From IMG/VR virus record IMGVR_UViG_2778261499_000007: a stretch of DNA of 14,225 nucleotides; one strand, given 5' to 3'. The first letter of the stretch is position 1. Each line of letters opens with the position of its first letter. Both the position numbers and the translations under genes were made by a program. Below the pieces are notes generated by a model that worked only from the letters and a program-made list of their open reading frames with translations, was not told the origin of the DNA and did not search any database. Shown here piece after piece: positions 1 through 14,225 of this stretch. The stretch is from a virus (taxonomy: Duplodnaviria > Heunggongvirae > Uroviricota > Caudoviricetes).

Positions 1-77
1 CCCCTCAGAGTGGATAGCTGCCAGTGTGGCGTAATTCAGGCCGCTATAGTGCTTTCCGTCATCCCAGCCAACCGCTA
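1..77. repeat. Terminal direct repeat, left copy (identical to 14149-14225)
   Basis: Base-by-base comparison: position 1 aligns with 14149 and position 77 with 14225; position 78 onward is unique. Confidence 0.9.
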
Positions 78-156
78 CACCTTCCATCTGTGAGAGCTCT
101 TTGTGCAGCTTATCCATCATGCGCTTGTCTATGGTGCAATGGACTTTCGGACTCAT
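1..156 (-). CDS. Hypothetical protein, N-terminal part (MSPKVHCTIDKRMMDKLHKELSQMEGVAVGWDDGKHYSGLNYATLAAIHSEG...); continues at 14148->13846 if the unit is circular
   Basis: ATG at 156-154 overlaps the TGA stop of the upstream gene (ATGA, 153-156), suggesting translational coupling. The frame stays open to position 1, and the residues encoded by 1-77 are the same as those encoded by 14149-14225. Confidence 0.5.
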   Translation of the reverse strand, partial: MSPKVHCTIDKRMMDKLHKELSQMEGVAVGWDDGKHYSGLNYATLAAIHSEG

Positions 157-956
157 TTGTTGATCTCCGTGATGTCATCGAGCAACATGTTGGCCTTATC
201 GATCATCGTTTCGTGGAACTCATTCGACACAACAGACTTATCACCTGCGGCAATCTTTCCAGCAGCCTCTCCCTGTGCATATTCCCCGCGATGCTTAGCC
301 CTGGTGGATTTCGTAGCAGCGTTGCCAGCGTTGCTACCCTCTTTAGCACTGTTAACAGCACCCTTTTGCTGTGTTTTGTTCACCTTCTTACTGTTAGTGA
401 AAACTCCGGCATTTTCGACCATCTTCACCTTGAAGGTGCGGAATTCTTCAAAAGTGCAATCAATAGTGATGCAGTCGCCAGAGGAAGAGCTACGCTTAAC
501 TTCACATTTCGTCATGATGAAGTTCTCAAGAAGTCCGGCATCTTCACTAACCAGGCTAACCAGCTGGCGCTTGTCTCTCATTTCCATAAGTGCCTGAACA
601 GCGGCAGCAGGGCGCATAGATTCACGGGGATTATCTGGATCAGTGTTCCGGTCGATGTAGTTCTCTTTCCGGATGATATGAGGGGAAGAGGTGATAATAC
701 CCGTAAAGCTGACAGATTTATCTTTAATGACGGCATGGTCTGACATGGTGGTGCCATCCTCGACCGCATAGCTCGATTTCTCGACAGGGAACGAATAGCT
801 GACATCAGAGATTGAGTCAAAGAAGATAGCCACGTTATCGGTATAGTTGAAGCCATCCATTATATTTTTGTTTTGTGAATATCCCCCACACATAACAGTG
901 AATGCAGGAGATCTCGACTCAGCTTGTTTTGCAGCTGTCAGAGCATCACTAGCCAT
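153..956 (-). CDS. Hypothetical protein, about 267 aa, Lys/Ala/Gly/Ser/Asn-rich C-terminal half; possibly virion-associated (function unknown)
   Basis: ORF-track ORF 153..1010 begins at a TTG; an internal ATG at 956-954 is preceded by GGAGG with about 10-nt spacing, so 956 is the likelier start. Protein-like composition; same strand as the capsid genes. Confidence 0.5.
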   Translation of the reverse strand: MASDALTAAKQAESRSPAFTVMCGGYSQNKNIMDGFNYTDNVAIFFDSISDVSYSFPVEKSSYAVEDGTTMSDHAVIKDKSVSFTGIITSSPHIIRKENYIDRNTDPDNPRESMRPAAAVQALMEMRDKRQLVSLVSEDAGLLENFIMTKCEVKRSSSSGDCITIDCTFEEFRTFKVKMVENAGVFTNSKKVNKTQQKGAVNSAKEGSNAGNAATKSTRAKHRGEYAQGEAAGKIAAGDKSVVSNEFHETMIDKANMLLDDITEINK

Positions 957-1150
957 ATTAAACATGCCTCCAAATTGGTCCACTTCATGGATTTGGCTAA
1001 ACTCGTGCAAGTAGCACTCATCCCGAGGGTGTTAAAGCCAAACCTGCAAAAGATGCAGGCAAAATAGAACTTATCGTTGCCCTGCTTAAAATCTGCAGAA
1101 AATACAGGGCAGTTATTCGTTAGAATCGCTTATAGCTCTTCCCGAGAGCG

Positions 1151-1543: not shown

Positions 1544-2578
1544 TTATTTAGCCTTGGCAGCGGCGGCGGTGTTTTTAACACTCACTTTAACCACAACTTC
1601 AGGCATCATGTTCATGAAAGCATAAGAGGATTCAACGAAGATTTCGCGTTTGCCTCTGGACTCTTCCATATACATGAAAGCTTCACGTGCAGCGCCGTTT
1701 GCCAGCTTCAGGTTGCGAGCGCAAGGGCCGAAAAATTGAGTATAAACGCCCACCATATCGCCTAACGCATGCGGCTGGAACTGTGGGACTAGATAAGCAG
1801 TATTCTCTGGCAGACTATCCATTTGCACCACACGCAGGGCTAAGCCCGGAATGCGGAAGGTCGGGAAGCCCGGCAGAATATCCTCAGGGAACATCAGACC
1901 TTTATCGGTAATATTCTGATTGCCGAACAACAGCACTTTACGGAGCAGTTCATCAGTCTGAATTGCAGCAAAGAGCTCAGCACGGCAGAACAGGGTGAAA
2001 CCACGCAGAGCGCGAACGACACCACGCTGTTTAACCTTGCTCAGTGCAACCAGGTCCTGCAGCTGTTTAAGGATATCTTGAGCTAGATCCACTTCTGAAG
2101 TGGTTTGCTGTGCGCCCAGCAGTTCGCACACATTCAGTTCTTTACCCTTGGTGAGGATAATTTTGTTCTCAAAGAGAGCAAGCTGGCGTGCTTCTTCATG
2201 GGTCTGGCGTAAGCCTTCGCCCAGTTGAATAACACGACGAGCGGTTACAGACTCTAAATTCTCTTCGGAATCTTTGCCAGGAACGCGGATACCCTGCCAG
2301 TCAGAAGGATAAATAGCACTTGATGCGGCAGTGAACGCCATATCACCCGTGCCCGTTTCACGCTCATCTGCGGTAATGGTCGCCATCTGTTCACCGTAGC
2401 GCGGATACTGACCGAAAGCGGTTTGTTTCACCTGCCGAACTTTGTCATATTCAAATTTGAAGGTATTGCACAGAGCAGTAGTGTTGAAGATATCCATTGC
2501 TGAAATAATCTGATTATCCAGCGGGATGTCTTTAATCAGACCACACAGATCGCGAACTTCGAATTCTTTCTTAGCCAT
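1544..2578 (-). CDS. Major capsid protein, lambda gpE-like family (HK97-fold), about 344 aa
   Basis: Size and position match lambda E (341 aa), immediately downstream of a 111-aa D-like gene. C-terminal segment KREIFVESSYAFMNMMPEVVVKVSV resembles the lambda gpE C-terminus as recalled. ATG at 2578 is preceded by AGGAGG with 6-nt spacing; the track start at 2584 is a TTG. Confidence 0.65.
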   Translation of the reverse strand: MAKKEFEVRDLCGLIKDIPLDNQIISAMDIFNTTALCNTFKFEYDKVRQVKQTAFGQYPRYGEQMATITADERETGTGDMAFTAASSAIYPSDWQGIRVPGKDSEENLESVTARRVIQLGEGLRQTHEEARQLALFENKIILTKGKELNVCELLGAQQTTSEVDLAQDILKQLQDLVALSKVKQRGVVRALRGFTLFCRAELFAAIQTDELLRKVLLFGNQNITDKGLMFPEDILPGFPTFRIPGLALRVVQMDSLPENTAYLVPQFQPHALGDMVGVYTQFFGPCARNLKLANGAAREAFMYMEESRGKREIFVESSYAFMNMMPEVVVKVSVKNTAAAAKAK

Positions 2579-2589
2579 TTCCAACCTCC

Positions 2590-2925: not shown

Positions 2926-3255
2926 TTGATCACCTGCGATTTAAATTAACTCCCCTCAAAGAGTTCCGGTATAACCTCTCAAACCGCGACAGGCTCGGGC
3001 CGAAAAGTTATGCCGGAAATCTAAAGGGGGATTGATATAAGGAGAGGGAGATAGCCCCGCACCGTAGCCAAGCGGGGGCTATTCCACATGGGGAAACCGA
3101 CAACAGTCGGATGATAGTTCACAGTATGGGTTACGGTTACTAGAGAGCACTATCACGAAAGGCACTCCCCCGAATCAGTTCAGGCTGCGGTCACATCAGC
3201 GGGGAAATACCTTTCGGGATAGCTACCCACACAGAAAACCCGCAAAAGAAAACTG

Positions 3256-3264
3256 TGTGGATAA
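3256..3264. promoter_or_regulatory. Perfect DnaA-box 9-mer (TGTGGATAA)
   Basis: Exact consensus match within the 870-bp ORF-free leader upstream of the capsid operon. Confidence 0.25.
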
Positions 3265-3408
3265 CTAGCCCAATAGGAGAATTAATCGACCACTCAACGA
3301 TGATCAGGGTAGTGTTATTTATAGGGCGGCACCGCTACCTGGTCGCCTTTACTTTGGAGGAAAATATGGCAAATCAAGATCTTCTCAAATGATATTGATT
3401 CCATACTA

Positions 3409-3428
3409 TACTGTATATTATATCAGTA
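3409..3428. promoter_or_regulatory. LexA/SOS-box-like site (taCTGTatattataTCAGta)
   Basis: CTGT-N8-TCAG with an AT-only spacer; matches the E. coli SOS-box consensus CTGT-(AT)4-ACAG except the first base of the right half-site. Confidence 0.35.
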
Positions 3429-3775
3429 TTTACTCACATTGTCAACACCTTGATTATATAAATTCTAATAATTAGCGTAGTAACGGTATTTTCAGACCTC
3501 TATCAATCCCATCAATACGTCACCCCCACCCTTTAGATGCATACATCCGACCTACTTTGTAGGCTTGGCGTACTGCCAAGGTCGCAGCTATGCGACTCCT
3601 ATCTATCACCACTTTATAAAGCTTGATAGATATCTTTTGATCAATATCAATGTTTTCCGGGTATTTACCCGGCTATAGTTCGAATCAAGGAAGGGGAGCA
3701 TTGATAGAGACACCCAAAGGGGTGACTGAAAGTCACCTGGCATAGCCAGTGAAAGCACCCAACCGAACAAACAAA

Positions 3776-3790
3776 TCAACTTCTCGCAAA
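3776..3790 (+). promoter_or_regulatory. Conserved 15-nt motif TCAACTTCTCGCAAA, copy 1, immediately upstream of the RBS of the 3802 peptide
   Basis: Identical 15-mer at 4367-4381 and a near-identical copy (TCAACCTCTCGCGAG) at 13473-13487. Copies 1 and 2 sit at the same distance from an SD and ATG. Confidence 0.5.
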
Positions 3791-3801
3791 AGGTGATAGT
3801 T

Positions 3802-3924
3802 ATGGGTATCAAGAACAGTGCCAGCGCATGGCAAAAGGCCAGGTTTCATCACCCACACATTGTTAAGGCAATTGAGGTGGTTGGAGTTTTAGCCCTGATG
3901 TTAGCTCTGTGTGTGGAGGTGTGA
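3802..3924 (+). CDS. Small peptide, 40 aa, with hydrophobic C-terminal segment (MGIKNSASAWQKARFHHPHIVKAIEVVGVLALMLALCVEV)
   Basis: Below the ORF-track size cutoff; translated by hand. AGGTGA RBS with 5-nt spacing; predicted C-terminal transmembrane segment. Confidence 0.3.
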   Translation: MGIKNSASAWQKARFHHPHIVKAIEVVGVLALMLALCVEV

Positions 3925-3925
3925 G

Positions 3926-4006
3926 ATGGGCAAAGGAGGCAAAGCATTTTTAATAGGTCTGGCTATCCTGGATGTTCTACTAATCATGATTAAGCGGAGT
4001 TTATGA
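3926..4006 (+). CDS. Small hydrophobic peptide, 26 aa (MGKGGKAFLIGLAILDVLLIMIKRSL)
   Basis: Translated by hand. GGAGG at 3915-3919 with 6-nt spacing; ATG begins 1 nt after the preceding TGA; single predicted transmembrane helix. Confidence 0.25.
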   Translation: MGKGGKAFLIGLAILDVLLIMIKRSL

Positions 4007-4025
4007 ACAGCATTGAGAGGAGTTT

Positions 4026-4286
4026 ATGACGGGGGCTAAAGATATCAGGAGACTGAGGGAAGAGCTGATAGCTGAAATTAAAGCTAAGGCAAAGCAAATG
4101 GAGATAGCCGCACAAATGGATGTAGCGGAACAGATGTACAAGATGGTTGAGGAGGGAACGCCACGACAGGTTATCGCTAAAACCTTCGGTGTGGGGATCG
4201 CCACCGTGCACAGAAGGCTGAAAGCCTATGCCGACTACCACAATATCGAGAGAAAGGAGGATGGGAGATTTAAGAAGAATAAATAG
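4026..4286 (+). CDS. Small HTH DNA-binding protein (coiled-coil N-terminus, C-terminal HTH GTPRQVIAKTFGVGIATVHRRLK), 86 aa
   Basis: ORF track; GAGGAG RBS; clear helix-turn-helix pattern; the overlapping minus-strand ORFs are low-complexity shadows. Confidence 0.55.
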   Translation: MTGAKDIRRLREELIAEIKAKAKQMEIAAQMDVAEQMYKMVEEGTPRQVIAKTFGVGIATVHRRLKAYADYHNIERKEDGRFKKNK

Positions 4287-4296
4287 TAGGAACAGG

Positions 4297-4336
4297 CCCG
4301 AAGGGCTTAGCTTTAGCTAAGGTCCTATCAGGACTC
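4297..4336. repeat. Right arm of the 40-bp inverted repeat (partner 1437-1476); hairpin-forming
   Basis: CCCGAAGGGCTTAGCTTTAGCTAAGGTCCT... is the reverse complement of 1437-1476 with about 4 mismatches; lies between the HTH gene stop and the next gene. Confidence 0.7.
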
Positions 4337-4366
4337 CCACACAGTCCAACAGGTTATTAACTAAAT

Positions 4367-4381
4367 TCAACTTCTCGCAAA
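4367..4381 (+). promoter_or_regulatory. Conserved 15-nt motif TCAACTTCTCGCAAA, copy 2, immediately upstream of the RBS of the 4393 gene
   Basis: Exact repeat of 3776-3790, at the same spacing to SD and ATG. Confidence 0.5.
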
Positions 4382-4392
4382 GGGGTACCACT

Positions 4393-5103
4393 ATGTTTAA
4401 AGGTCTTGTTGTTACGCTATTGGCTTGCATTGTATTTGGTCCATGGGTGTTAGTAATTGCTTTACCTATATTGCTGATCATGAGCTTAGGGAATGATATT
4501 AAAAAGCTGCATGCACAATATAAGGAGCATCCTGGAGCAGTCATAACAAGTCTGGTTATAGTCGCGGGGCTTATTGGCTGGGTCTACTTCTCTCTTCCCA
4601 CAGGAAATACAACTGCAAATGTAGAAGAGGCGAACGCACAGCATGAAGAAGTGGTTAACGTCGCCGACCTTACATGGGAGGACAGGGTAAAAGCATATAA
4701 ATATATTTATGGTGTGCTAGATTGCGATCTCTCTAAAGATATAGGATGCACAGATAAATACCAGATTCACGCCTGGCTGTGGAATCATGCAGAAAAAGGT
4801 GCTTGCAACCAGATTAAAGTGGCGGTTAACAGTGGGGCACCTACTGGGAAAAATAAAGATGTTCTGACGGTATGGTGCAAGGATGTAAAAGGCAATGATC
4901 GTTGGCTACAGATGCGCCACATGGACGGTGTAAGCATAGAAACTACACGAACGGCTCGATGGTATAACGGTGAACTCGTTCACGAAGCATGGCAGAATAA
5001 CGCCTGGATCACTGAGGGAACACTCCTGAATGTTGATATGGAAGCATTGAAGATGCTTAATGAGATGTACGGTGAAGCCGTAGAAACCTCTCCGATGAAA
5101 TAA
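4393..5103 (+). CDS. Membrane protein, 236 aa: N-terminal transmembrane helices and a Cys-containing C-terminal domain; function unknown
   Basis: ORF track; two long hydrophobic segments in the first 70 aa; several Cys in the C-terminal domain; followed by a strong terminator. Confidence 0.55.
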   Translation: MFKGLVVTLLACIVFGPWVLVIALPILLIMSLGNDIKKLHAQYKEHPGAVITSLVIVAGLIGWVYFSLPTGNTTANVEEANAQHEEVVNVADLTWEDRVKAYKYIYGVLDCDLSKDIGCTDKYQIHAWLWNHAEKGACNQIKVAVNSGAPTGKNKDVLTVWCKDVKGNDRWLQMRHMDGVSIETTRTARWYNGELVHEAWQNNAWITEGTLLNVDMEALKMLNEMYGEAVETSPMK

Positions 5104-5113
5104 CCACACCTAC

Positions 5114-5143
5114 CAGGGGCCATCACGGCCCCTTTTTATTTAT
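5114..5143 (+). terminator. Rho-independent terminator (AGGGGCC-atcac-GGCCCCT followed by TTTTATTTAT)
   Basis: Perfect 7-bp GC-rich stem, 5-nt loop and T-rich tail starting 11 nt after the stop of the 4393..5103 gene. Confidence 0.7.
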
Positions 5144-5200
5144 CCCCTATTTACACTCCTTTCAGTCCTGATCATCACTCCCTACCCCCTGATCAATTAA

Positions 5201-5250
5201 CCCCTATTTAAGGGGTATTTAATGGGTATTTAATGCCTATTTATTGATTT
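5201..5250. repeat. Phased tandem repeats of TATTTAA at about 11-bp period (4 to 5 copies), plus a second CCCCTATTTA copy at 5144-5153
   Basis: cccctatttaa / ggggtatttaat / gggtatttaat / gcctatttatt / gatttaat; periodicity of about one helical turn. Confidence 0.6.
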
Positions 5251-6486
5251 AATCCGTTTTATGCCACAACCGCCCGGTTGACAGAGTAAGAGAGAGGGTG
5301 TAACCCTTTTTCGTAATACTAATAAAATCAATAGCTTAGCTCAATTGGCCTTTTCTCTGTTTTTGTCAAATTTAACATACCCTAAAAAACTGCAAAATCT
5401 GGCTGCAAGATTATCTGCAGCTGGATTTCTTACACCTCAATTTGTGGTATCACCCTGACTAGTTTGTGCATAAAATGAACAGTTTTTAACATTTCCTCTT
5501 CACCTGGTAACCACACAAAAAGCTAAAAACGAGGCACAGATAATCTTAGAGGCCTGTTTTCTTGTTATCACTCTGGAAACGTCGTAGAAGTGATTTTGAT
5601 GAAAGATGACCTACCCTATTACACCCCCATTTTTTGTTATCACAATTGCATCCTGTGCGGTGTATGGCTGTGTGCTGAAAGCGGTCTTGGGTGTGGGTGT
5701 CAGAAATATCCATTAGCGGTATTAATACCCGTCAGATGTTCGTCTGAGGTGCCAGGCAGGCGCTCCCCCACCTCCCTTTTTTCTTCTAACAATTCTCAAA
5801 TATCACACCACTGCCGACCACGTTACTACTCTGTTAATTCTTAAGCTTTGCTGTATGTTGTGCACATTATTTATTCAGGTGCGTGTACGTAAATTCTGGG
5901 CCTCCTTATCATGATTTTTAAATCAGATTTTGTAGTTCGGTTTCTTAGTGTAGATAAGATCTATTATGTTAAATGCAATTTTCCCAACCCTTCAAATCAA
6001 TGACTTACATGTAAGCATGCACTAACACCCCACACAGCACATTAGACGTATAGATGGCTATATCCCACATTTTTGATTGTTTTGTAGTCATTCCCCTGAT
6101 CATTTAACCAGTATAGTTTGTTCTTTGCAGACCACAAAATCGGAATTTACATCTGATTAACATAATCTGTTAGCATGATCACTATTACCCACACAACAAT
6201 AACCCCATGCAAGACTCTTCAGGCAATTTATCGGCGTGTTGGTGTGAACAGTCTTTCATGTTCTTTATGTTTTCATTGTCCTGTGTGAGGGAAGGATGGA
6301 CTGCCCCAGGGGCCACACTTATGATGCCCGGTCAACATAGCTATTGATAAAATCAACGGGTGTTGATCTGCATATTTCCCACACATGAGAGGAAATCAGA
6401 GCAAAGAGAGAGGAGAGAGGTTTGCTAGTCAAAATAGGTCAATTGACGGCTAATACAGAGTAAAAAATCAGATGCAATCACTCCCC

Positions 6487-6669
6487 ACCTGTTGGGATTT
6501 CCCGCACCTGTATAAGAATACAGTCATACTTTCCCGTTATACGGTCATACACATGATGGAATAACCTGTTGGAATTTCCTACAGGTTTAACCATACACAG
6601 GAGCTAACCTGTTGGAATTTCCTACTACTACCTGTCGGTATTTCCCACAGGTACCTGTTGGAATTTCCC
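6487..6669. repeat. Iteron array (5 copies of ACCTGTTGGAATTTCCY at 6487, 6564, 6607, 6630, 6653), candidate replication origin
   Basis: Near-identical 17-mers; the last three are spaced 23 bp apart; ACCTGT/ACAGGT inverted half-sites; followed by an AT-rich tract (6670-6710) and, 1.3 kb downstream, Rep-like genes. Confidence 0.7.
6508..6523. promoter_or_regulatory. Canonical SOS-box pattern CTGT-N8-ACAG (CTGTATAAGAATACAG) inside the iteron region
   Basis: Exact CTGT and ACAG half-sites with an 8-nt A/T-rich spacer. May partly reflect the iteron ACCTGT/ACAGGT half-sites. Confidence 0.35.
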
Positions 6670-6797
6670 ACACTAATAGATAAAGAGAATAGATCAATAA
6701 AAAGAACTCCCCCTATAATCCCCCAACAAGGGGGGATGGGGAGGGATCAGAGAGTGGGGAAGGTTTTCTAAGGGAAAAGCTTAACCCACAAATGAAA

Positions 6798-6826
6798 GCC
6801 TAAAGAGCATTAGCGACTCTTTAGGC
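6798..6826. other. Perfect 10-bp stem hairpin (GCCTAAAGAG-N9-CTCTTTAGGC), part of a highly structured ORF-free stretch (about 6790-7100)
   Basis: Exact inverted repeat. Nearby are GGTGAC-N21-GTCACC (6840-6872), TTAAGCC-tct-GGCTTAA, GTCCGGA-N20-TCCGGAC and tandem 17-mers at 6826-6843 and 6873-6889. Confidence 0.5.
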
Positions 6827-7231
6827 AATCTGTGTGTGGGGTGACAATGTATTCCATACATGACACGTCACCCAATTGTGTGTGGGGTGCTTACAGCACT
6901 TAAGCCTCTGGCTTAACCCTTCGGGCCTCTGTGTGGGAAGCGTAGTGCGATAGCACGTAGCTTTATAATGTGGAGTCCGGATAAGAGACTTCTGTTTCCA
7001 ATCCGGACCGTTTAAGCGAGGGATTCCGCTCGCCCGTGTATGCACACACGTAATAGGACGCTCAGAAATCGATTTTAAGGCCCAAAACGGGGCCTACAGC
7101 AACCTAAACCATACTCCATAGTGCAATTGCATTGCCTGATGCTTAAATCGCGTTGTAGGGCATCTCATGAGGTTTGAGTTTAACACCCTCCAAAGTTTTA
7201 ACAAAAAGTGCTCTCCCTCCATTGTGGGCCA

Positions 7232-7261
7232 TTGACAATCTTATTGCATAAATGCTATAAG
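7232..7261 (+). promoter_or_regulatory. Sigma70-like promoter (TTGACA-N18-TATAAG)
   Basis: Consensus -35 hexamer with a 5-of-6 match -10 at 18-nt spacing. One of five (A/T)TTGACAAT-type repeats in 7230-7560. Confidence 0.4.
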
Positions 7262-7551
7262 TGATTCTGGTTTTGACACGGTAGGGGCCATTAATAATGT
7301 TTACCCCTTTGCTGTGGACTTGCTTGCACCTATAGCACACCTAAATGATAATAATTCTCATTGACAATTGGTTGACAATATGATAAGATTATAAATAGGG
7401 GGAGAAACAGATCCGGAGGTCAATGTGGAAATTACTGATGCAATAGCGATCATCAACCTGGCTGTACTGTGGTGCGGTGTTGCCTACATAGCCGGAGTAA
7501 CTGCAATCGACAATCTCGAAGAAAAAATGATAGATAAATACAAAAAGATTG

Positions 7552-7580
7552 TTGACAATTTGACGAATGTCTGATAAAAT
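7552..7580 (+). promoter_or_regulatory. Sigma70-like promoter (TTGACA-N17-TAAAAT) about 125 nt upstream of the 7706 gene
   Basis: Consensus -35 and near-consensus -10 at optimal spacing, oriented toward the replication gene block. Confidence 0.45.
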
Positions 7581-7915: not shown

Positions 7916-7939
7916 TAAATAATCTTGGAGGATCATATT

Positions 7940-8326
7940 ATGGCAAATAACGATGAAAATTTTACTCCCTTTTTTAAACGTTTCATCAAATACACTTTTA
8001 AAAATCCGATTGCAAAAACTGCAACCAATAAAGAAAGATTTCACTTAAATGTGTTGGAGGTAACAATTTATGGTGAAATGGTAAGTTATTCTTTTAAGGA
8101 GGGTGAAGAAATAATTATCTCAGAGCTCTCGACGCAGACATTAGCAGACGATTATGATGTTACAGAGAAAACAGTAAGGTCGGCTATCAAAACATTAGAG
8201 GCTGCAGGTCTGATAAACGTTAAACGAGAACAGGGCAAATCGAATATCTACGAATTGCTAATTACCCCTGATCAGCTTGGCAAGATGTGCGATGAGCAGG
8301 GTATTAGAGAATATTTTATATATTAA
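7940..8326 (+). CDS. Rep-like winged-helix protein, short paralog (about 128 aa); replication-initiator-type HTH
   Basis: Segment ISELSTQTLADDYDVTEKTVRSAIKTLEAAGLINVKREQGKSNIYELL fits the winged-helix pattern of phage/plasmid replication initiators. GGAGG RBS before the ATG at 7940 (track start 7925 is a TTG). Paralogous to the next gene. Confidence 0.5.
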   Translation: MANNDENFTPFFKRFIKYTFKNPIAKTATNKERFHLNVLEVTIYGEMVSYSFKEGEEIIISELSTQTLADDYDVTEKTVRSAIKTLEAAGLINVKREQGKSNIYELLITPDQLGKMCDEQGIREYFIY

Positions 8327-8337
8327 TGGGGGGAACT

Positions 8338-9258
8338 ATGGCAGGAAATAAACTGGGGGCACCTTTTACCCCCTCTTTCGATTTCTTTATTCAGTATGAT
8401 TTTGATAAACCAGTAGCAACAACAATTTCTAATAAAAAGACTGGAACAGTTAAAGAGCGCTTCTATTTAACAGACTTTGAAATGTTGATTTATGGAAAAA
8501 TGGTGGGATTTCATTTTAACGGTGAGGGAATTTATATTTCAGAGCAAAAACTGGCAACTCAACTCAGAAAGGATCGCGGGAAAATAGTAAGCGCTATTAA
8601 ATCTCTGGAAAATGCCGGGCTTATTTCTAAAGATAGCCGGAAAGGCATGTCTAATAATTACAAATTGCTGAAAACCCCTGATCAATTGTTGGATATGTGC
8701 ATTGAGAAGGGCGTAAATATTCCAGAAGGCATCTTAGAGACTTTCGGAAAGACTGCCGCTAAAGTAGAACAGCCTCAGGAAGCCCCAAAACAAGCCACAC
8801 AGCAAGCTAAAAAGGCTAAAGTAGTGCAATTGCCTACCCAAGACACTAAAGCGCCTCAAATTAACGCTGTTAGTGACAAGCCACGCCGGGGCCGTCCTGT
8901 GAAAGATGTCACCGATGGAGGCTGGATCGTCCTGGGTGAGAGTGAGGCTAAAGGCATAATGCGATCACTGTGGGAAAGCAAATACAAAGATTTAAACAAA
9001 CGTCGCCCGATCCTTTTGTCAAAGATTCAGGAGGATTTTTACACCGCAGAAGAGGTAAGCCAACATAAAGGGAAAAGAGAGGGTGAAATCTGGAAACCGG
9101 AAGAATACTGGCATTTAACCAGACCTGTGTTTATTTTTGCAAATAAGCTTATTGGGATGGGATTTGAAATATTGTTGGATAAAACCTGCGGAGATTATCC
9201 CGAAATATTGTGGAGAAATGTTAGAAAAAATAAAAAAGGCATTTTAGAGTTTAAATAA
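8338..9258 (+). CDS. Rep-like replication initiator, long paralog (about 306 aa) with a C-terminal extension
   Basis: N-terminal 120 aa parallels the preceding gene (MA.N...FTP.F...; ...SAIKSLENAGLISKDSRKGMSNNYKLL). The previous stop overlaps an upstream ATG at 8326 (TAATG); 8338 is preceded by a G-rich SD. Iterons lie upstream. Confidence 0.5.
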   Translation: MAGNKLGAPFTPSFDFFIQYDFDKPVATTISNKKTGTVKERFYLTDFEMLIYGKMVGFHFNGEGIYISEQKLATQLRKDRGKIVSAIKSLENAGLISKDSRKGMSNNYKLLKTPDQLLDMCIEKGVNIPEGILETFGKTAAKVEQPQEAPKQATQQAKKAKVVQLPTQDTKAPQINAVSDKPRRGRPVKDVTDGGWIVLGESEAKGIMRSLWESKYKDLNKRRPILLSKIQEDFYTAEEVSQHKGKREGEIWKPEEYWHLTRPVFIFANKLIGMGFEILLDKTCGDYPEILWRNVRKNKKGILEFK

Positions 9259-10618: not shown

Positions 10619-11002
10619 ATGAATATTGAAGAAATGATAGTTGAATTCGAAGATGGTGATTTCCTGGAAGATGGGGAGTTTAAATACTCCCGTTTTAAAC
10701 AGGCGTTATTTAGCAGTGAGGATAAACCACACGTTAGTGATCTTAACGACGATGATTTATGTCGTTGGGTATGCACCCGCTTATATGAGGATGGAAAATA
10801 TACAGGCCAAAACTTTCCAAATCTCTATTTCAAAGCACAAACATTTGAGGAAGGGCAAAGAGTGAAAAACCTGGTAGATAAAATGCTTTCAGCCGGATAT
10901 TTGCATAAAGAATTATTAAATCCTAAAGCTGAAAGCAAGCGCCATTATATTTTTGTGTGGTCTGTGGGGGATAAGTGCCCACTGAAGCGTAAAGGCAAAT
11001 GA
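10619..11002 (+). CDS. Acidic hypothetical protein, about 127 aa; possible tail assembly chaperone by position upstream of the tape-measure gene
   Basis: GAGAGGA RBS is correctly spaced for the ATG at 10619 (track start 10613 is too close to the SD). Acidic composition and tight packing against the next two genes. Confidence 0.4.
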   Translation: MNIEEMIVEFEDGDFLEDGEFKYSRFKQALFSSEDKPHVSDLNDDDLCRWVCTRLYEDGKYTGQNFPNLYFKAQTFEEGQRVKNLVDKMLSAGYLHKELLNPKAESKRHYIFVWSVGDKCPLKRKGK

Positions 11003-11190: not shown

Positions 11191-13293
11191 ATGGCAATGA
11201 AGGAAGTAGCCAAGCTAACAAACGTTATTTACTGGGATTCTGATAAATCCAGCTGGCGAAAAGAAGTTAAACGGCTTGAGGATTATAAAAAATCCTGGAA
11301 GAAAGCTACCGACGATATAGCTAAAGCGGATTTTAAATCTAATCAGGCTGTGCTCAGAACACAAAGAACACGCGCTAAGGTGGAAGAGCAGATCGCCAGA
11401 GCACAGAAGAAACAACGTGCTCAGGCTGTCAGCCGTCTGACCGGGGGCAATAATCCGGAGCTCTCCTCTATGCGCAAGTTCTATCAGCAGCAAGCCAGAG
11501 AGGCCGCCAGACAACAAAAACTGTTAGATCGTAGTGTTGGAGATGTTCAGCACAGAAAAGCACGTGTAGGGGCCAACAGTGCACGAATCAGCAGCATGTT
11601 TGATGGCTCCCTGGTTGCTCAGTTCCAATCCAGAATTCAGAGAGTTAATGCTGATTATGCTAAAGGGGCTATTAACCTGCAGACCTATAATCAGAAAATG
11701 GCCCGACTCAGATCTGAAATGAAGATGGCAACAGCAGAGGCCGGAAAATTTCAGAGCAGACTAGACAAAGCTGCGGTAGCAGGATCAAAGCTGCATGACA
11801 ACCTGGGCAAACTCAACTCCACACTAGGCAAGATAGCTATTGGCCTTACTGCCGCTGGCTGGGGTGTTCAGCGTGCTGTTAGTGGTGCTATGGGTAGCCT
11901 TGCAGATCGCAACAGTGCGTATTTCAGCTTAATGGCCCAGAACAAGGATGATAAAGAAAAAACTGATCAGCAGATGGCCTACGTCAAAAGAATCTCTTAT
12001 GACTACGGGATGGATCAGCGTGAGACTGAAGGCGGCTTTATGCGCTTTGCTGCAGCCACACCAAGCATAAAAGAGAAAGATAAGCAGGATCTCTTTGAGG
12101 CTATGGCGATTAAAGGCCGATCAGTGGGTGCTACCGCAGACCAACAGAACAGGGCTATCGTTGCACTAGGACAAATATATAGCAAGGGCGGTCGAGTGTA
12201 TGCGGAAGAGCTTAAGGGCCAACTTTCTGAAGCCCTGGCAGGTTCTCAGGTAGATTTCACTAAGGCCGCTATCGATGCCGGAGTCATCAAGAAAGAGGAA
12301 GAATTTAATAAAGCCCTTGAAGATGGCAAGATCACCATGGACAAGCTTCTTCCTTCTCTGGTGAAAATCTGGGGTGCTGCAAAAGAAACTAAAGCTTTTG
12401 CTGAATCCATGAAACAGCCAGAAGTAGCAATGCAGCGCATGAAAAACAGCTTTAACGAGCTGGCGATTCAGTTTATGGGTGTTGTGGATCCTGCAGATGG
12501 CGTTATTAGCTTATCTGAATCTCTAATCTCCATCTTCGAAGACCTCACCACTGATATGGACGGCAGCGGGAGCGCGGCAAAACAGTTCGGTGAGGCAGTC
12601 GGGGCTGCCATGCGGGAGATCATGTATTGGGTAGGCTTCGCTAAGGGATATATCGAGATTAAGGCTAAAGAGTTCGGCATGACCAGTGAGGAAGTCGGAG
12701 GATGGATCGGCAAGCTGGTTGTTGCAATCGCAGGTCTGAAGATCATCGGCACACTTCTTTCTCCGTTTACCGGACTGATTTCACTTGTCACACAGCTGAT
12801 AGCCTTGTTAGGTAAAATCCCTGGTATGAGCAAGCTTCTGGCTTCTGCCTCAGGTGGAACGGCAACAGGAGCAGCGGTCATCAGTGCAGGATCTAACGCT
12901 GAAAGAAGTTTCATTGATGGCAAGACGCAGGAAATGAGTAAGGAGAACTCAAAACAGGGTGCTTTGTTTGAGCTGGGAAGATTTGTTAGCAATGCTGGCG
13001 CACTATTCACACCTGGCGGTGATACTGGTCCTTTGTTCGATCAGGTCAGAGGCTGGTTTAATAAAGGGCCAACATTGACAGTAGACACTGGCATCAGACC
13101 AACACCAACGGGTGGCATAGCTATCCAGAATGGTGGATATCAACCAGTCCAAGTAAATGTAGCCCCACAAGGTGAGATTTCCGGCAAATGGGAGATAACC
13201 ATCGATGAGGGGGGAATTGCCAGGGTAATTCAGAAGGAAGTCAGCGATCAGTTGGATTGGAAAGCCACGCAGGAATCTAACCAGCTTTTCTAA
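11191..13293 (+). CDS. Tail tape measure protein-like, 700 aa
   Basis: Long coiled-coil N-terminal region; segment ADQQNRAIVALGQIYSKGGRVYAEELKGQLSEALAGSQVDF matches the conserved tape-measure domain pattern (SKG...EEL..QL.E.L.G); long hydrophobic helices at about residues 505-560; Gly-rich C-terminus. Confidence 0.7.
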   Translation: MAMKEVAKLTNVIYWDSDKSSWRKEVKRLEDYKKSWKKATDDIAKADFKSNQAVLRTQRTRAKVEEQIARAQKKQRAQAVSRLTGGNNPELSSMRKFYQQQAREAARQQKLLDRSVGDVQHRKARVGANSARISSMFDGSLVAQFQSRIQRVNADYAKGAINLQTYNQKMARLRSEMKMATAEAGKFQSRLDKAAVAGSKLHDNLGKLNSTLGKIAIGLTAAGWGVQRAVSGAMGSLADRNSAYFSLMAQNKDDKEKTDQQMAYVKRISYDYGMDQRETEGGFMRFAAATPSIKEKDKQDLFEAMAIKGRSVGATADQQNRAIVALGQIYSKGGRVYAEELKGQLSEALAGSQVDFTKAAIDAGVIKKEEEFNKALEDGKITMDKLLPSLVKIWGAAKETKAFAESMKQPEVAMQRMKNSFNELAIQFMGVVDPADGVISLSESLISIFEDLTTDMDGSGSAAKQFGEAVGAAMREIMYWVGFAKGYIEIKAKEFGMTSEEVGGWIGKLVVAIAGLKIIGTLLSPFTGLISLVTQLIALLGKIPGMSKLLASASGGTATGAAVISAGSNAERSFIDGKTQEMSKENSKQGALFELGRFVSNAGALFTPGGDTGPLFDQVRGWFNKGPTLTVDTGIRPTPTGGIAIQNGGYQPVQVNVAPQGEISGKWEITIDEGGIARVIQKEVSDQLDWKATQESNQLF

Positions 13294-13395
13294 TGTCCAC
13301 TCTGTGGATTTGAGTTCTACTCAAACCTGCATAGCAGGCACTGATATTGTGATCAAAATCAATAAGTTAGCCTGACCGGACAAACTCCAGGCAAG

Positions 13396-13426
13396 AAAAA
13401 AGCCCCTAAGTGTTAACAAAGGGGCT
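13396..13426 (-). terminator. Rho-independent terminator for minus-strand transcription (AGCCCCT-N12-AGGGGCT followed by six T on the minus strand)
   Basis: Perfect 7-bp stem at 13401-13407 and 13420-13426; the A-run at 13396-13401 on the plus strand gives the U-tail on the minus strand. Confidence 0.55.
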
Positions 13427-13472
13427 CTTCTCCGGTATCCTTTTGATGCGGGGCAAAACCTGCTAACAAAAA

Positions 13473-13487
13473 TCAACCTCTCGCGAG
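13473..13487 (+). promoter_or_regulatory. Conserved motif copy 3 (TCAACCTCTCGCGAG), in the loop of an 11-bp inverted repeat (13458-13468 and 13493-13503)
   Basis: 13 of 15 identical to the motif at 3776 and 4367; not followed by a credible ORF, which argues for function at the DNA or RNA level. Confidence 0.4.
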
Positions 13488-13845
13488 ACTAATGTTAGCA
13501 GGTTGCCGGAAGGTAAGTCAACTCCGGTCTATAAACCTTAAAGCGACTATAAAATCGCCCCGCCAATTGTGATGATCCGACCTTTGAGGCGGGTCCGGTG
13601 CCCAGGGGGTGCAGTGATGCACAAACCAGGCAACGATAAACAGGCTAACAGTGATAGCGGCGCTCAATCAGCGCACTAAATCCTAACCAGTCCGGGAAAG
13701 AGGCTGGCTCTATCGACCGCTCATGCACGGGACAATGCATACCTGATAAAGGATTCTCACAAGGGACCAATCGCGAGAAAGAAGTGGAAAGGGGCTGATT
13801 TGTGGTGTATCACTACGGCCTCAAAAGACATCCTATTGTCTTTTT

Positions 13846-14225
13846 TCAGCCTCTACCTACATTTGACCAATACTTGATTGCACCGATCAAATCATCATAG
13901 TGGCGCATTGCATCATTGAAGCCTTTATAGCTTGCCCATTGTGGTGAAACCTTGTTATTGCTGAATTGCCCACTAATCAGGATAGTCTCCAAAATGTCGG
14001 CATATCGCTTACCAATACGCTTTCTGACGGCCTCAGAGCTCCCACCCTTTACGATTGCATTAATCAGGGCTTTTGTGTGTCTCAGGCTCTCATAGAGCAT
14101 TGCAGCGTGGGCAGATTCCATAAAGGAGCGCTTAGGCAGATCACCCCACCCCTCAGAGTGGATAGCTGCCAGTGTGGCGTAATTCAGGCCGCTATAGTGC
14201 TTTCCGTCATCCCAGCCAACCGCTA
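13846..14225 (-). CDS. Hypothetical protein, C-terminal part (...MESAHAAMLYESLRHTKALINAIVKGGSSEAVRKRIGKRYADILETILISGQFSNNKVSPQWASYKGFNDAMRHYDDLIGAIKYWSNVGRG); same gene as 1-156 if circular (about 152 aa total)
   Basis: The frame is open from the window end down to the TGA at 13846-13848; the upstream portion is supplied in frame by 156->1 through the 77-bp junction. Confidence 0.5.
   Translation of the reverse strand, partial: AVGWDDGKHYSGLNYATLAAIHSEGWGDLPKRSFMESAHAAMLYESLRHTKALINAIVKGGSSEAVRKRIGKRYADILETILISGQFSNNKVSPQWASYKGFNDAMRHYDDLIGAIKYWSNVGRG
14149..14225. repeat. Terminal direct repeat, right copy (identical to 1-77)
   Basis: Same 77-mer as the window start; consistent with a circular contig written with overlap, or a direct terminal repeat. 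Confidence 0.9.

What the first reader, a model, noticed from the sequence alone, without database searches (positions are those of the whole stretch)
3776..5103. Leader-motif-marked module: two small hydrophobic peptides, an HTH protein and a membrane protein
Two hand-found peptides (40 and 26 aa) with good RBSs and predicted transmembrane segments precede an 86-aa HTH protein. After a hairpin comes a 236-aa membrane protein with a Cys-containing non-membrane C-terminal domain. The first peptide and the membrane protein are each preceded by the identical 15-mer. The arrangement resembles small-toxin, holin-like, superinfection-exclusion or abortive-infection cassettes.
Basis: inference. Interest (0 to 1): 0.65.

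Follow-up and report, generated by a model that had tools for sequence, protein, structure and literature searches.

The report
Shared-leader membrane operon with swappable gene
A small capsid-gene-carrying E. coli plasmid holds a conserved operon of two tiny membrane peptides and a DNA-binding protein, followed by a plug-in slot for alternative cell-envelope proteins; the same short leader marks the first peptide and the slot gene, and a plasmid-encoded small RNA may control both.

Summary
pep1 (3802-3924, 40 aa), pep2 (3926-4006, 26 aa), an 86-aa Hin-like HTH protein (4026-4286) and a 236-aa membrane protein (4393-5103) are real. TCAACTTCTCGCAAA sits 11-12 nt before the pep1 and 236-aa start codons.

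The window is a complete 14,148-bp circular E. coli plasmid. It belongs to an apparently undescribed family carrying capsid, tape-measure and baseplate-like genes.

In 22 close relatives the 13-mer core is invariant at both sites. pep1 is under purifying selection (dN/dS 0.05-0.09). pep2 is missing in one lineage.

The 236-aa gene occupies a cassette slot. Three architectures, all envelope proteins, swap exactly between the leader's ATG and a conserved terminator. The "hairpin" after the HTH gene is a 45-nt insertion, not a terminator.

No part matches any holin, type I toxin, exclusion or defence family.

New: every complete plasmid examined has a third motif copy with no conserved ORF (13473-13487). 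On the opposite strand it would start a roughly 60-90-nt RNA ending at a hairpin plus U-run. That RNA would pair 12-15 bp with both leaders. I propose sRNA-gated translation of an envelope module, with an exclusion-type or addiction-type role. Neither function nor RNA is demonstrated.

The parts
3600..3632 (.). Operator-like inverted repeat TATCTATCA-N15-TGATAGATA in the control region upstream of the operon. It is part of a cluster of TGATAG/CTATCA boxes at 3500, 3603, 3624, 3702 and 3794.
   Evidence: The arms are conserved and the spacer varies among relatives. Five boxes fall within 320 nt, which 0 of 300 shuffles reach. Sequence verified.
3674..3679 (+). Candidate -10 hexamer TATAGT of the rightward promoter of the operon. 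The -35 is weak. This is an inference.
   Evidence: CCCGGCTATAGTT is invariant in all relatives, including the divergent L120 and L123. The consensus scan found no full sigma-70 match on the + strand.
3776..3790 (+). Leader motif copy S1 (TCAACTTCTCGCAAA; core CAACTTCTCGC at 3777-3787). It abuts the Shine-Dalgarno sequence of pep1.
3802..3924 (+). pep1, a 40-aa peptide: basic N-terminal part with an HHPH motif and a C-terminal hydrophobic segment (tail-anchored type).
   Evidence: Intact in every relative examined. Codon-position variation is 1/1/8. dN/dS is 0.05-0.09 against L120.
3926..4006 (+). pep2, a 26-aa single-TM-like peptide. It is accessory: lost in one lineage and frameshifted in one plasmid.
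   Evidence: In the short junction form its stop overlaps the HTH start (ATGA).
3984..4029 (+). 23-nt tandem duplication of the pep2-end/HTH-start junction. It uncouples the ancestral stop/start overlap.
   Evidence: (families D3 and D13).
4026..4286 (+). 86-aa DNA-binding protein: an N-terminal helix plus a Hin/resolvase-type HTH, with no catalytic domain.
   Evidence: Pfam HTH_7 at 3.4e-6. The closest solved sequence is the Hin DNA-binding domain at E 3.5e-4. Homologues occur only in this plasmid family.
4292..4336 (+). 45-nt insertion made of three short hairpins. It has no U-tract and is not a terminator.
   Evidence: Absent from most relatives. Fold. The same 45-mer lies inverted at another locus of L147.
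4367..4381 (+). Leader motif copy S2. It abuts the Shine-Dalgarno sequence of the cargo gene.
   Evidence: A variant, ACAACCTCTCGCAAAGGAG, occurs in the L141/L145 lineage.
4393..5103 (+). Cargo allele A: a 236-aa inner-membrane protein with hydrophobic segments at about residues 4-31 and 50-68. It carries a periplasmic alpha/beta domain with four Cys (111, 119, 138, 162).
   Evidence: The anchor is replaced by a signal peptide in P0004.
5115..5143 (+). Intrinsic terminator of the operon and right-hand boundary of the cargo cassette.
   Evidence: Fold energy -14.6 kcal/mol, z -3.1. Conserved behind all cargo types.
13473..13487 (+). Third motif copy S3 (TCAACCTCTCGCGAG), followed by no conserved ORF. 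It sits in the loop of an 11-bp hairpin (13458-13503).
   Evidence: (z -3.3).
13396..13485 (-). Candidate small RNA of about 90 nt. Its 5' end, GCGAGAGGUUGAUUU, is complementary to S1 and S2. It ends at a hairpin (13426-13401) followed by U6.
   Evidence: Inferred; expression was not tested.
13492..13521 (-). Candidate promoter of that RNA: TTGACT, 18 nt, TGnTAACAT.
   Evidence: The same -35 hexamer lies at the same distance from the anti-motif in the non-homologous S3 region of L147 and L149.

Best explanation
The region 3776-5103 is one rightward operon of a 14.1-kb capsid-gene-bearing E. coli plasmid, probably a plasmid-form phage satellite.

Expression (order shown; co-transcription inferred from the absence of a terminator):
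- Transcription from the control region around 3600-3680 reads pep1, pep2 and the HTH gene. These are translationally coupled or close-packed.
- With no terminator in between, it continues into a cargo gene and stops at the hairpin at 5115-5133.

Cargo slot (shown):
- The cargo position is a cassette slot. Alternative envelope proteins are exchanged exactly between the leader's ATG and the terminator.
- The window's allele is a two-span inner-membrane anchor carrying a periplasmic, probably disulfide-bonded alpha/beta domain (topology inferred).

Leader element:
- The 15-mer is the core of a regulatory element placed directly 5' of the two Shine-Dalgarno sequences (placement and conservation shown; regulatory role inferred).
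- Most likely mechanism (inferred): the third motif copy at 13473-13487 is read from the opposite strand as a small RNA. Its 5' end pairs 12-15 bp with both leaders, so one RNA gates translation of the peptide/HTH unit and of the cargo together.

Role (inferred, least certain): the cargo acts at the envelope as an exclusion- or defence-type accessory protein. The Hin-like HTH protein may bind the TGATAG boxes around its own promoter.
For: Gene reality and order.

One operon:
- There is no U-tract hairpin between the HTH gene and the cargo.
- The gap is only 34 nt in lineage L141.
- No sigma-70 match precedes the cargo.
- A strong terminator follows it.

Cassette slot:
- Cargo types A (236, 225 or 186 aa), B (173 or 179 aa) and C (195 aa) occur behind an identical leader and before an identical terminator.
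- A and C share a 60-column core (hhalign probability 88.9%, E 2.4e-6). Any A-B similarity is confined to the first TM and is weak.
- Between the window and L002, dS is 0.77 in the periplasmic part against 0.10 in the anchor. The alleles are therefore mosaics.

Periplasmic exposure:
- The anchor is replaced by a signal peptide in P0004, and type C also has a signal peptide.
- C138 and C162 are invariant.

Leader under selection:
- The 13-mer is identical in 44 of 44 sites.
- The core is retained in a lineage whose HTH gene has diverged to about 68% nucleotide identity.

Candidate sRNA:
- All ten complete or near-complete plasmids scanned carry exactly three core copies, all on one strand.
- S3 has no conserved ORF. 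In the 26-codon ORF, the two changes seen in L148 are both non-synonymous.
- Two non-homologous S3 contexts (type I in the window; type II in L147 and L149) share only three things: the anti-motif, a TTGACT about 30 nt upstream, and a hairpin with a U-run downstream in the minus sense. This places the anti-motif at +1/+2 of the predicted transcript.
- The 5' 22 nt pair with S1 at -26.2 and with S2 at -23.9 kcal/mol. Every other start region on the plasmid scores -14.6 or weaker.
- The seed G faces U or C in its targets, and the type II seed A faces only U.
- In eight type I copies the seven variable columns avoid the -35, the -10, the seed and the terminator stems.
- The S3 island 13391-13829 is 93-100% identical to L145, whose genes are 67-88% identical.
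Against: - No expression data of any kind are available.
- The type II -10 (CACACT) is weak and failed the promoter scan.
- S3 lies between convergent operons, where terminators are expected anyway.
- A query-shuffle test of the pairing energy alone was not significant: -21.1 against -18.7 +/- 2.4 kcal/mol.
- The conserved 11-bp hairpin around S3 is not needed by the short-transcript model.
- S3 could equally be a third sense-strand binding site.
- No helper phage was identified. The motif is not enriched in an rV5-like genome, and in IMG/VR it occurs only as scattered single copies in no leader context.
Confidence: 0.4

Rival explanations
1. The motif works on the sense strand as a protein-binding site. 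It would be either a DNA operator or roadblock for the module's own Hin-like HTH protein (or another plasmid regulator), or an RNA translational operator. S3 would then be a third or decoy site rather than an RNA gene.
For: - Three copies lie in one orientation.
- The core is invariant while the flanks vary.
- The module encodes a Hin-type HTH. From my own knowledge, such domains bind 12-13-bp non-palindromic half-sites as monomers.
- In RNA the motif's CUUCU can pair weakly with each Shine-Dalgarno sequence.
Against: - This model gives no reason for the TTGACT at a fixed distance and the minus-sense U-run to persist in two non-homologous S3 contexts.
- The statistically clustered candidate operator in the control region is a different sequence, TGATAG.
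- The local hairpins are weak, at -3.4 to -5.5 kcal/mol with non-significant z-scores.
Confidence: 0.25
2. The core is a type I toxin-antitoxin-like addiction system. pep1, with or without pep2, would be a membrane-damaging toxin. The S3 RNA would be the trans-encoded antitoxin, pairing in the 5' UTR as IstR-1 does on tisB or OrzO on zorO. The cargo would merely share the control.
For: - The peptides are 40 and 26 aa with one hydrophobic segment each.
- pep1 is strictly conserved and under purifying selection.
- A candidate sRNA has 12-15 nt of complementarity just 5' of the Shine-Dalgarno sequence.
- The element is a non-mobilizable plasmid that would benefit from post-segregational killing.
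Against: - There is no homology to Hok, Ldr, TisB, Ibs, ShoB or other toxin families.
- pep1's hydrophobic segment is C-terminal and it is followed by close-packed regulatory genes, which is atypical.
- The antitoxin candidate lies 4.5 kb away.
- pep2 is dispensable.
- Toxicity is untested.
Confidence: 0.2
3. The leader identity has no regulatory meaning. It would be a by-product of an old duplication of a ribosome-binding region, kept identical because it serves as the homology arm for cassette exchange.
For: The cargo boundary falls exactly at the ATG after the leader. A distant cargo homologue carries a related SD-proximal leader in a different context.
Against: - S1 is not a cassette boundary, yet it is as invariant as S2.
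- Only the 11-13-nt core survives where both flanks have changed, as at S2 in L123 and L141 and at S3 in L147.
- A third copy is kept in every plasmid.
Confidence: 0.1
4. The module is a lysis cassette. The small peptides would act as holin/antiholin-like proteins and the membrane protein as a lysis accessory, used when particles are released.
For: The products are small membrane proteins, and cargo type B has a highly basic C-terminus.
Against: - No holin family matches.
- From my own knowledge of holin sizes, the peptides are shorter than typical holins.
- No endolysin or spanin gene is adjacent.
- A secreted soluble protein (type C) substitutes in the same slot.
- The module is divergent from, not part of, the structural operon.
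Confidence: 0.05

Closest known systems
Phage morons and satellite hotspots (accessory-gene slots between conserved genes, as described for lambdoid phages and for P4-like satellites; from established knowledge)
   Same: Unrelated or distantly related accessory genes occupy one position between conserved flanks and end at a terminator. The products are small envelope proteins, a typical moron content.
   Different: The slot has no promoter of its own in these plasmids. The conserved left flank is a 13-nt leader plus ribosome-binding site, so exchange happens at the start codon. All cargo families are orphans confined to this plasmid family.
Superinfection-exclusion envelope proteins (T4 Imm and Spackle, HK97 gp15, P22 SieA, Cor/Llp; from established knowledge)
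   Same: These are small inner-membrane or periplasmic proteins made by a resident element. They are allelically diverse, and some alleles carry a signal peptide while others carry a TM anchor.
Type I toxin-antitoxin systems with trans-pairing RNAs (tisB/istR-1, zorO/orzO, shoB/ohsC; from established knowledge)
   Same: A very small hydrophobic peptide is encoded behind a 5' UTR element that is complementary to a separately encoded small RNA.
   Different: The candidate RNA lies 4.5 kb away and has two targets, one of them a 173-236-aa cargo gene. The peptide is followed by a coupled regulator gene. There is no toxin-family homology and toxicity is untested.
RNA-based immunity of P1/P7 (c4 RNA on icd-ant) and P4 (CI RNA on seqA/seqC) (from established knowledge)
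   Same: A mobile element uses a short RNA that recognises repeated short target sequences in the leader of an operon beginning with a small ORF.
   Different: In P1 and P4 the RNA is processed from the same transcript as its targets. Here the candidate is convergent, has its own putative promoter, and carries a 5'-terminal seed like Hfq-type sRNAs. The Rfam gathering-threshold scan found no family.
Hin/resolvase C-terminal DNA-binding domain (Pfam HTH_7)
   Same: The HTH segment at residues 30-67 matches HTH_7 above the gathering score and matches the solved Hin DNA-binding domain.
   Different: There is no serine-recombinase catalytic domain. The protein is 86 aa with an N-terminal helix, so it is a stand-alone DNA binder and not a recombinase.

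Membership tests
Holins | Sequence membership in a described holin family | tested here: not met
   No Pfam, NCBIfam or PHROGs hit for pep1, pep2 or cargo A, B or C.
Holins | Genomic association with an endolysin or spanins in a lysis cassette | tested here: not met
   The neighbours are an HTH gene and a non-coding region. The only weak 'endolysin' PHROG hit is the baseplate/Dit-like gene at 153-1010 on the other strand, which has far better tail hits.
Type I toxin-antitoxin (Hok/Sok, TisB/IstR-1, ZorO/OrzO types) | Toxin is a peptide under 60 aa with a transmembrane segment | tested here: met
   pep1 is 40 aa and pep2 26 aa. Kyte-Doolittle maxima are 2.7 and 2.9 over 15-residue windows.
Type I toxin-antitoxin (Hok/Sok, TisB/IstR-1, ZorO/OrzO types) | Homology to a known toxin family | tested here: not met
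Type I toxin-antitoxin (Hok/Sok, TisB/IstR-1, ZorO/OrzO types) | A small antisense RNA complementary to the toxin mRNA | tested here: inconclusive
   There is a candidate minus-strand RNA at 13485-13396 with 12-15 bp of complementarity to the pep1 leader. Its expression is unknown.
Type I toxin-antitoxin (Hok/Sok, TisB/IstR-1, ZorO/OrzO types) | Toxicity on overexpression, neutralised by the RNA | not testable with these tools
   Needs expression experiments.
Superinfection-exclusion proteins | Envelope location of a protein made by the resident element | tested here: met
   Predicted only. TM anchors or signal peptides occur in all cargo types, anchor and signal peptide are interchangeable, and the Cys are conserved.
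Superinfection-exclusion proteins | Homology or fold similarity to Imm, Sp, SieA, gp15, Cor or Llp | tested here: not met
Superinfection-exclusion proteins | Blocks adsorption or DNA entry of incoming phage | not testable with these tools
   Needs phage-challenge assays.
Abortive-infection and other defence systems (PADLOC) | Match to a known defence-system protein model | tested here: not met
   No hit for pep1, pep2 or the cargo proteins. The HTH protein gives only weak, non-specific hits.
Moron / accessory hotspot | Different genes at one locus between conserved flanks | tested here: met
   Three architectures and at least seven alleles share identical leader and terminator flanks.
Moron / accessory hotspot | Own promoter and terminator (an autonomous transcription unit) | tested here: inconclusive
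   The terminator is present. No promoter match precedes the cargo in the window. A distant homologue, P0006, does have its own TTGACA-16-TATAAT promoter.
Pfam HTH_7 (resolvase/Hin DNA-binding domain) | Score above the Pfam gathering threshold | tested here: met
   27.5 bits against 23.8. Hin DNA-binding domain at E 3.5e-4.
Serine recombinases | N-terminal catalytic resolvase domain | tested here: not met
   The protein is 86 aa and only the HTH segment matches.
Trans-acting sRNA with 5' seed (Hfq type) | Own promoter, single-stranded 5' seed, and a Rho-independent terminator with a U-tail | tested here: inconclusive
   Promoter-like site at 13521-13492, a seed at the predicted +1, and a hairpin with U6. 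The same layout occurs in a non-homologous context. The type II -10 is weak.
Trans-acting sRNA with 5' seed (Hfq type) | RNA detected, and regulation shown with compensatory mutations | not testable with these tools
   No transcriptome data are available here.

The most novel reading that the evidence does not exclude
An undescribed plasmid-form phage satellite of E. coli uses a single 5'-seed small RNA to gate translation of two units at once through one 11-13-nt leader tag. The RNA would be encoded at the 3' end of its leftward capsid/baseplate gene block, either from its own promoter or from that operon's 3' UTR. The two units are a membrane-peptide/HTH operon and a plug-in envelope gene. 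This would couple the structural (particle-forming) programme to the resident-state envelope programme. It would be a hybrid of type I toxin-antitoxin control, P1/P4-style RNA immunity and a start-codon-precise cassette socket for exclusion genes.
Probability: 0.2. Interest if true: 0.75.

Novelty: new variant of a known kind. Interest (0 to 1): 0.55.

Why it matters
Four reasons:

- If the model holds, the module is a compact, portable "tagged leader plus one sRNA" switch. It would co-regulate otherwise unrelated membrane genes.
- The slot would be a natural socket where envelope-acting genes are swapped at the start codon. Both are directly testable with reporter fusions and compensatory mutations.
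- It points to an orphan family of periplasmic domains that sit where exclusion or defence genes usually sit.
- The carrier is a capsid-encoding, non-mobilizable plasmid family present in hundreds of E. coli and Shigella assemblies. I found no description of it. A 2025 review (PMC12282955) states that only one phage satellite has so far been shown to be a plasmid.

If instead the peptides are toxins, this would be a new type I toxin-antitoxin family with a distal antitoxin.

Tried and rejected
1. Helper-phage promoter idea. The motif followed by GGG resembles the layout of single-subunit RNA polymerase promoters.
   - The 15-mer gives 106 scattered single matches in IMG/VR with no leader context, which I read as chance.
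   - It is not enriched in an rV5-like genome: 4 sites with up to 3 mismatches against about 3.4 expected.
   - S1 has no promoter-like sequence upstream.
   - Rejected.
2. Sigma-70, sigma-E, sigma-54 or leaderless-promoter readings of the motif. Hand comparison and the scan gave nothing.
3. A trans antisense partner elsewhere on the plasmid found by energy alone. The result was not significant. The S3 idea rests on anatomy, not on that test.
4. Homology searches. pep1, pep2 and cargo A, B and C matched no named family in Pfam, NCBIfam, PHROGs or PADLOC. The HTH protein matched only HTH_7 and weak generic hits. tblastn against phages (cargo A, B, C and pep1) and PDB sequence searches (the A and C profiles) found nothing. 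A profile search of 1.84 billion representatives found only P0005, P0006 and P0008, plus a spurious Ig-repeat protein.
6. More distant relatives. The genome-contig scan found none. The metagenome scan found four loci, all in the same family.
7. The hairpin as a terminator: rejected.
8. The S3 26-codon ORF as a gene: rejected. It is absent from type II S3 regions, and both changes in L148 are non-synonymous.
9. Literature. Three searches found no description of this plasmid family or module.
Full report
**What the window is**

The first 77 bases repeat at the end, so the window is a complete circular contig of 14,148 bp. Megablast finds no phage match. It does find a small family of circular E. 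coli plasmids, mostly 13.2-13.7 kb, typed as non-mobilizable.

These plasmids carry several phage-type genes:
- a major capsid protein (1544-2584, minus strand);
- a Dit-like baseplate protein (153-1010, minus strand);
- a 700-aa tape-measure protein (11191-13293);
- Rep-like winged-helix proteins (7925-9258);
- iterons, and more than 2 kb without genes.

The capsid and tape-measure proteins are only about 25% identical to those of rV5-like myoviruses. One HTH variant alone is indexed in 228 blocks of the assembly collection, 194 of them with 10-20-kb contigs. Three literature searches found no description of the family. A 2025 review states that only one phage satellite has so far been shown to be a plasmid (PMC12282955).

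**Checking the observation**

All four ORFs and both copies of the 15-mer are present:
- pep1 is 3802-3924.
- pep2 is 3926-4006.
- The HTH gene is 4026-4286.
- The 236-aa gene is 4393-5103.
- TCAACTTCTCGCAAA is at 3776-3790 and 4367-4381, ending 11-12 nt before each ATG and abutting each Shine-Dalgarno sequence.

Besides the assembly overlap and the iterons, only two exact 15-mer repeats exist in the plasmid. Shuffles give a mean of 0.13.

**Are the small ORFs genes?**

pep1 is a gene.
- Across ten close plasmids its variable sites fall 1/1/8 by codon position, like the HTH gene at 8/5/31.
- Against the divergent lineage L120 its dS is 1.1 and its dN 0.06-0.10, giving dN/dS of 0.05-0.09.
- It is intact in every relative, including a lineage whose HTH gene has diverged to about 68% nucleotide identity.

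pep2 is real but dispensable.
- It varies mainly at codon position 1, with conservative hydrophobic exchanges, and position 2 is conserved.
- It keeps 26-28 codons across a 23-nt junction duplication and across insertion of an extra 35-aa acidic ORF. In the short forms its stop overlaps the HTH start.
- It is frameshifted in one plasmid and absent in lineage L141/L145.

Both peptides have one hydrophobic segment. Neither matches any family.

**The HTH protein**

It passes the Pfam HTH_7 threshold. Its closest solved sequence is the Hin DNA-binding domain. It has no catalytic domain. Homologues exist only in this plasmid family.

The control region upstream carries an inverted repeat, TATCTATCA-N15-TGATAGATA. 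Its arms are conserved and its spacer varies. TGATAG boxes cluster there, with five in 320 nt, which 0 of 300 shuffles reach. From memory, the Hin half-site contains TGATAA. That makes this protein a candidate binder, but it is a lead and not a test.

**The 236-aa protein occupies a cassette slot**

In relatives the same position holds one of several genes:
- the 236-aa type (A);
- a 173/179-aa multi-span protein with a Gly-rich basic tail (B);
- a 195-aa signal-peptide protein with four Cys (C);
- a 186-aa signal-peptide version of A, and a 225/228-aa A variant.

Homology breaks exactly at the ATG after the conserved leader. It resumes at the conserved terminator AGGGG(G)CCATCACGGCCCCTTTT.

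A and C share a 60-column core (hhalign 88.9%, E 2.4e-6). Any similarity between A and B is limited to the first TM and is weak. Between the window and L002 the anchor has dS 0.10 and the periplasmic part 0.77, so the alleles are mosaics.

The interchangeability of TM anchor and signal peptide places the C-domain in the periplasm, and C138 and C162 are invariant.

The families are tiny and confined to these plasmids. Two distant homologues are known. One sits behind its own strong promoter. The other lies among phage-like small genes.

**One operon, not two units**

- The hairpin after the HTH gene is a 45-nt insertion of three short stems with no U-tract. It is absent from most relatives and occurs inverted at another locus in L147.
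- In L141 the gap between the HTH gene and the cargo is 34 nt.
- No promoter match precedes the cargo.
- The terminator at 5115-5133 is strong.

**The leader motif**

The 13-mer TCAACTTCTCGCA is identical at both sites in 22 of 22 close plasmids, while neighbouring bases vary. Where both flanks have been replaced, the core survives. Examples are S2 in L123 (followed directly by GGAG) and S2 in L141 (ACAACCTCTCGC).

It is not a helper-phage promoter motif as far as could be tested. It has no sigma-70 features. In RNA its CUUCU can pair weakly with each Shine-Dalgarno sequence, but the energies are not significant.

**A third copy and a candidate small RNA**

All ten complete or near-complete plasmids scanned have exactly three copies of CAAC[T/C]TCTCGC, all on the + strand. 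The third copy (13473-13487) is followed by no conserved ORF.

It lies in a 440-nt non-coding island. That island is 93-100% identical to L145, whose genes are 67-88% identical to the window's.

In L147 and L149 this region is replaced by unrelated sequence. Read on the minus strand, three features persist:
- a TTGACT hexamer;
- about 30 nt downstream, the anti-motif GCGAGA(A/G)GTTGA;
- then a GC-rich hairpin followed by a U-run.

In the window the scan reports TTGACT-18-TAACAT with an upstream TG at 13521-13492. That puts +1 at the first base or two of the anti-motif.

The predicted RNA's 5' end pairs with S1 at -26.2 kcal/mol and with S2 at -23.9. No other start region on the plasmid is better than -14.6. 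The one variable core position is compatible with pairing in every lineage: G faces U or C, and A faces U. The few substitutions among eight type I copies avoid the -35, the -10, the seed and the stems. Weak sub-threshold Rfam hits to the hairpin are mostly on the minus strand.

The weaknesses are real:
- There are no expression data.
- The type II -10 is poor.
- The locus lies between convergent operons.
- The energy-only shuffle test was not significant.

**Interpretation**

Shown:
- The genes are real.
- The cargo position is a cassette slot.
- The leader core is conserved, and each complete plasmid examined has three copies.

Inferred:
- The module is transcribed as one operon.
- The cargo faces the periplasm.
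- A small RNA from the S3 locus gates translation of both tagged units. I put the probability of this step at about 0.45.
- The cargo has an envelope exclusion or defence role. I put this at about 0.3-0.35, with a type I toxin-antitoxin-like addiction role for pep1 as the main functional rival.

Holin, abortive-infection and recombinase readings fail their membership tests.

**Verdict**

The finding is real and richer than described. Its parts are orphans, and its logic is a new variant of known themes: morons and hotspots, RNA immunity, and type I toxin-antitoxin systems. Function is unproven. Interest is moderate to high because the predictions are sharp and cheap to test, and because the carrier plasmid family itself seems undescribed.

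Noticed in passing
window 1-77 and 14149-14225: The two ends are identical over 77 nt. The window is therefore a complete circular contig of 14,148 bp with an assembly overlap.
   Followed up: yes
whole window; relatives L001, L008, L126, L127, L145-L149: This is a family of 13.2-15.5-kb circular elements from E. coli and Shigella, non-mobilizable where typed. They carry a major capsid protein, a Dit-like baseplate protein, a tape-measure protein and Rep-like genes, but no recognisable portal or terminase. The family is present in hundreds of assemblies, is only about 25% identical to rV5-like phages, and was not found in the literature searched. It looks like an undescribed plasmid-form phage satellite.
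   Followed up: partly
window 13391-13829: A 440-nt non-coding island is 93-100% identical to lineage L145, whose coding genes are only 67-88% identical to the window's. It contains the S3 hairpin. Other lineages (L147, L149) have a different sequence in its place.
   Followed up: partly
window 5104-7424: About 2.3 kb has no convincing gene. It holds 11-nt-period repeats TATTTAAGGGG/TATTTAATGGG (5205-5250), five or six iterons CCTGTTGGAATTTCC (about 6487-6668), and a run of short hairpins separated by CTGTGTGGG-like motifs (about 6780-7100).
   Followed up: no
window 3708-3755, 4292-4336, 13295-13339; L147 6410-6454 and 6525-6569: Three insertions of 45-48 nt are each built of two or three short hairpins and are present in only some relatives. 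Two of them recur inverted at other loci in L147. They may be a tiny mobile palindromic element.
   Followed up: partly
window 3445-3417 (minus strand): A perfect sigma-70 promoter (TTGACA-17-TATAAT with an upstream TG) points at the capsid gene block. About 490 nt of leader, containing long inverted repeats (3150-3277), separate it from the first gene.
   Followed up: no
window 3112-4325: Nine of the plasmid's 16 TGATAG/CTATCA hexamers lie here. Five of them fall within 320 nt upstream of and inside the pep1 leader, which 0 of 300 shuffles reach.
   Followed up: partly
L140 (NZ_CP043822.1, 39,610 bp): This record is a head-to-tail trimer of the 13.2-kb unit with the same cargo in each copy. 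It is either a real concatemer or an assembly artefact.
   Followed up: partly
window about 7425-7574 (+): Another small ORF with a hydrophobic segment (49 aa, GTG start). It is annotated in relatives as WP_157794903.1.
   Followed up: no
window 857-871 and 10942-10956: The only other exact 15-mer repeat on the plasmid is CCATTATATTTTTGT.
   Followed up: no
L120 2492-2599; L123 2111-2218: Some lineages carry an extra 35-aa acidic helical ORF (MSQAEMIIKAEELLERLQKAMDDAWNLIEELHEED) inserted between pep1 and pep2.
   Followed up: partly
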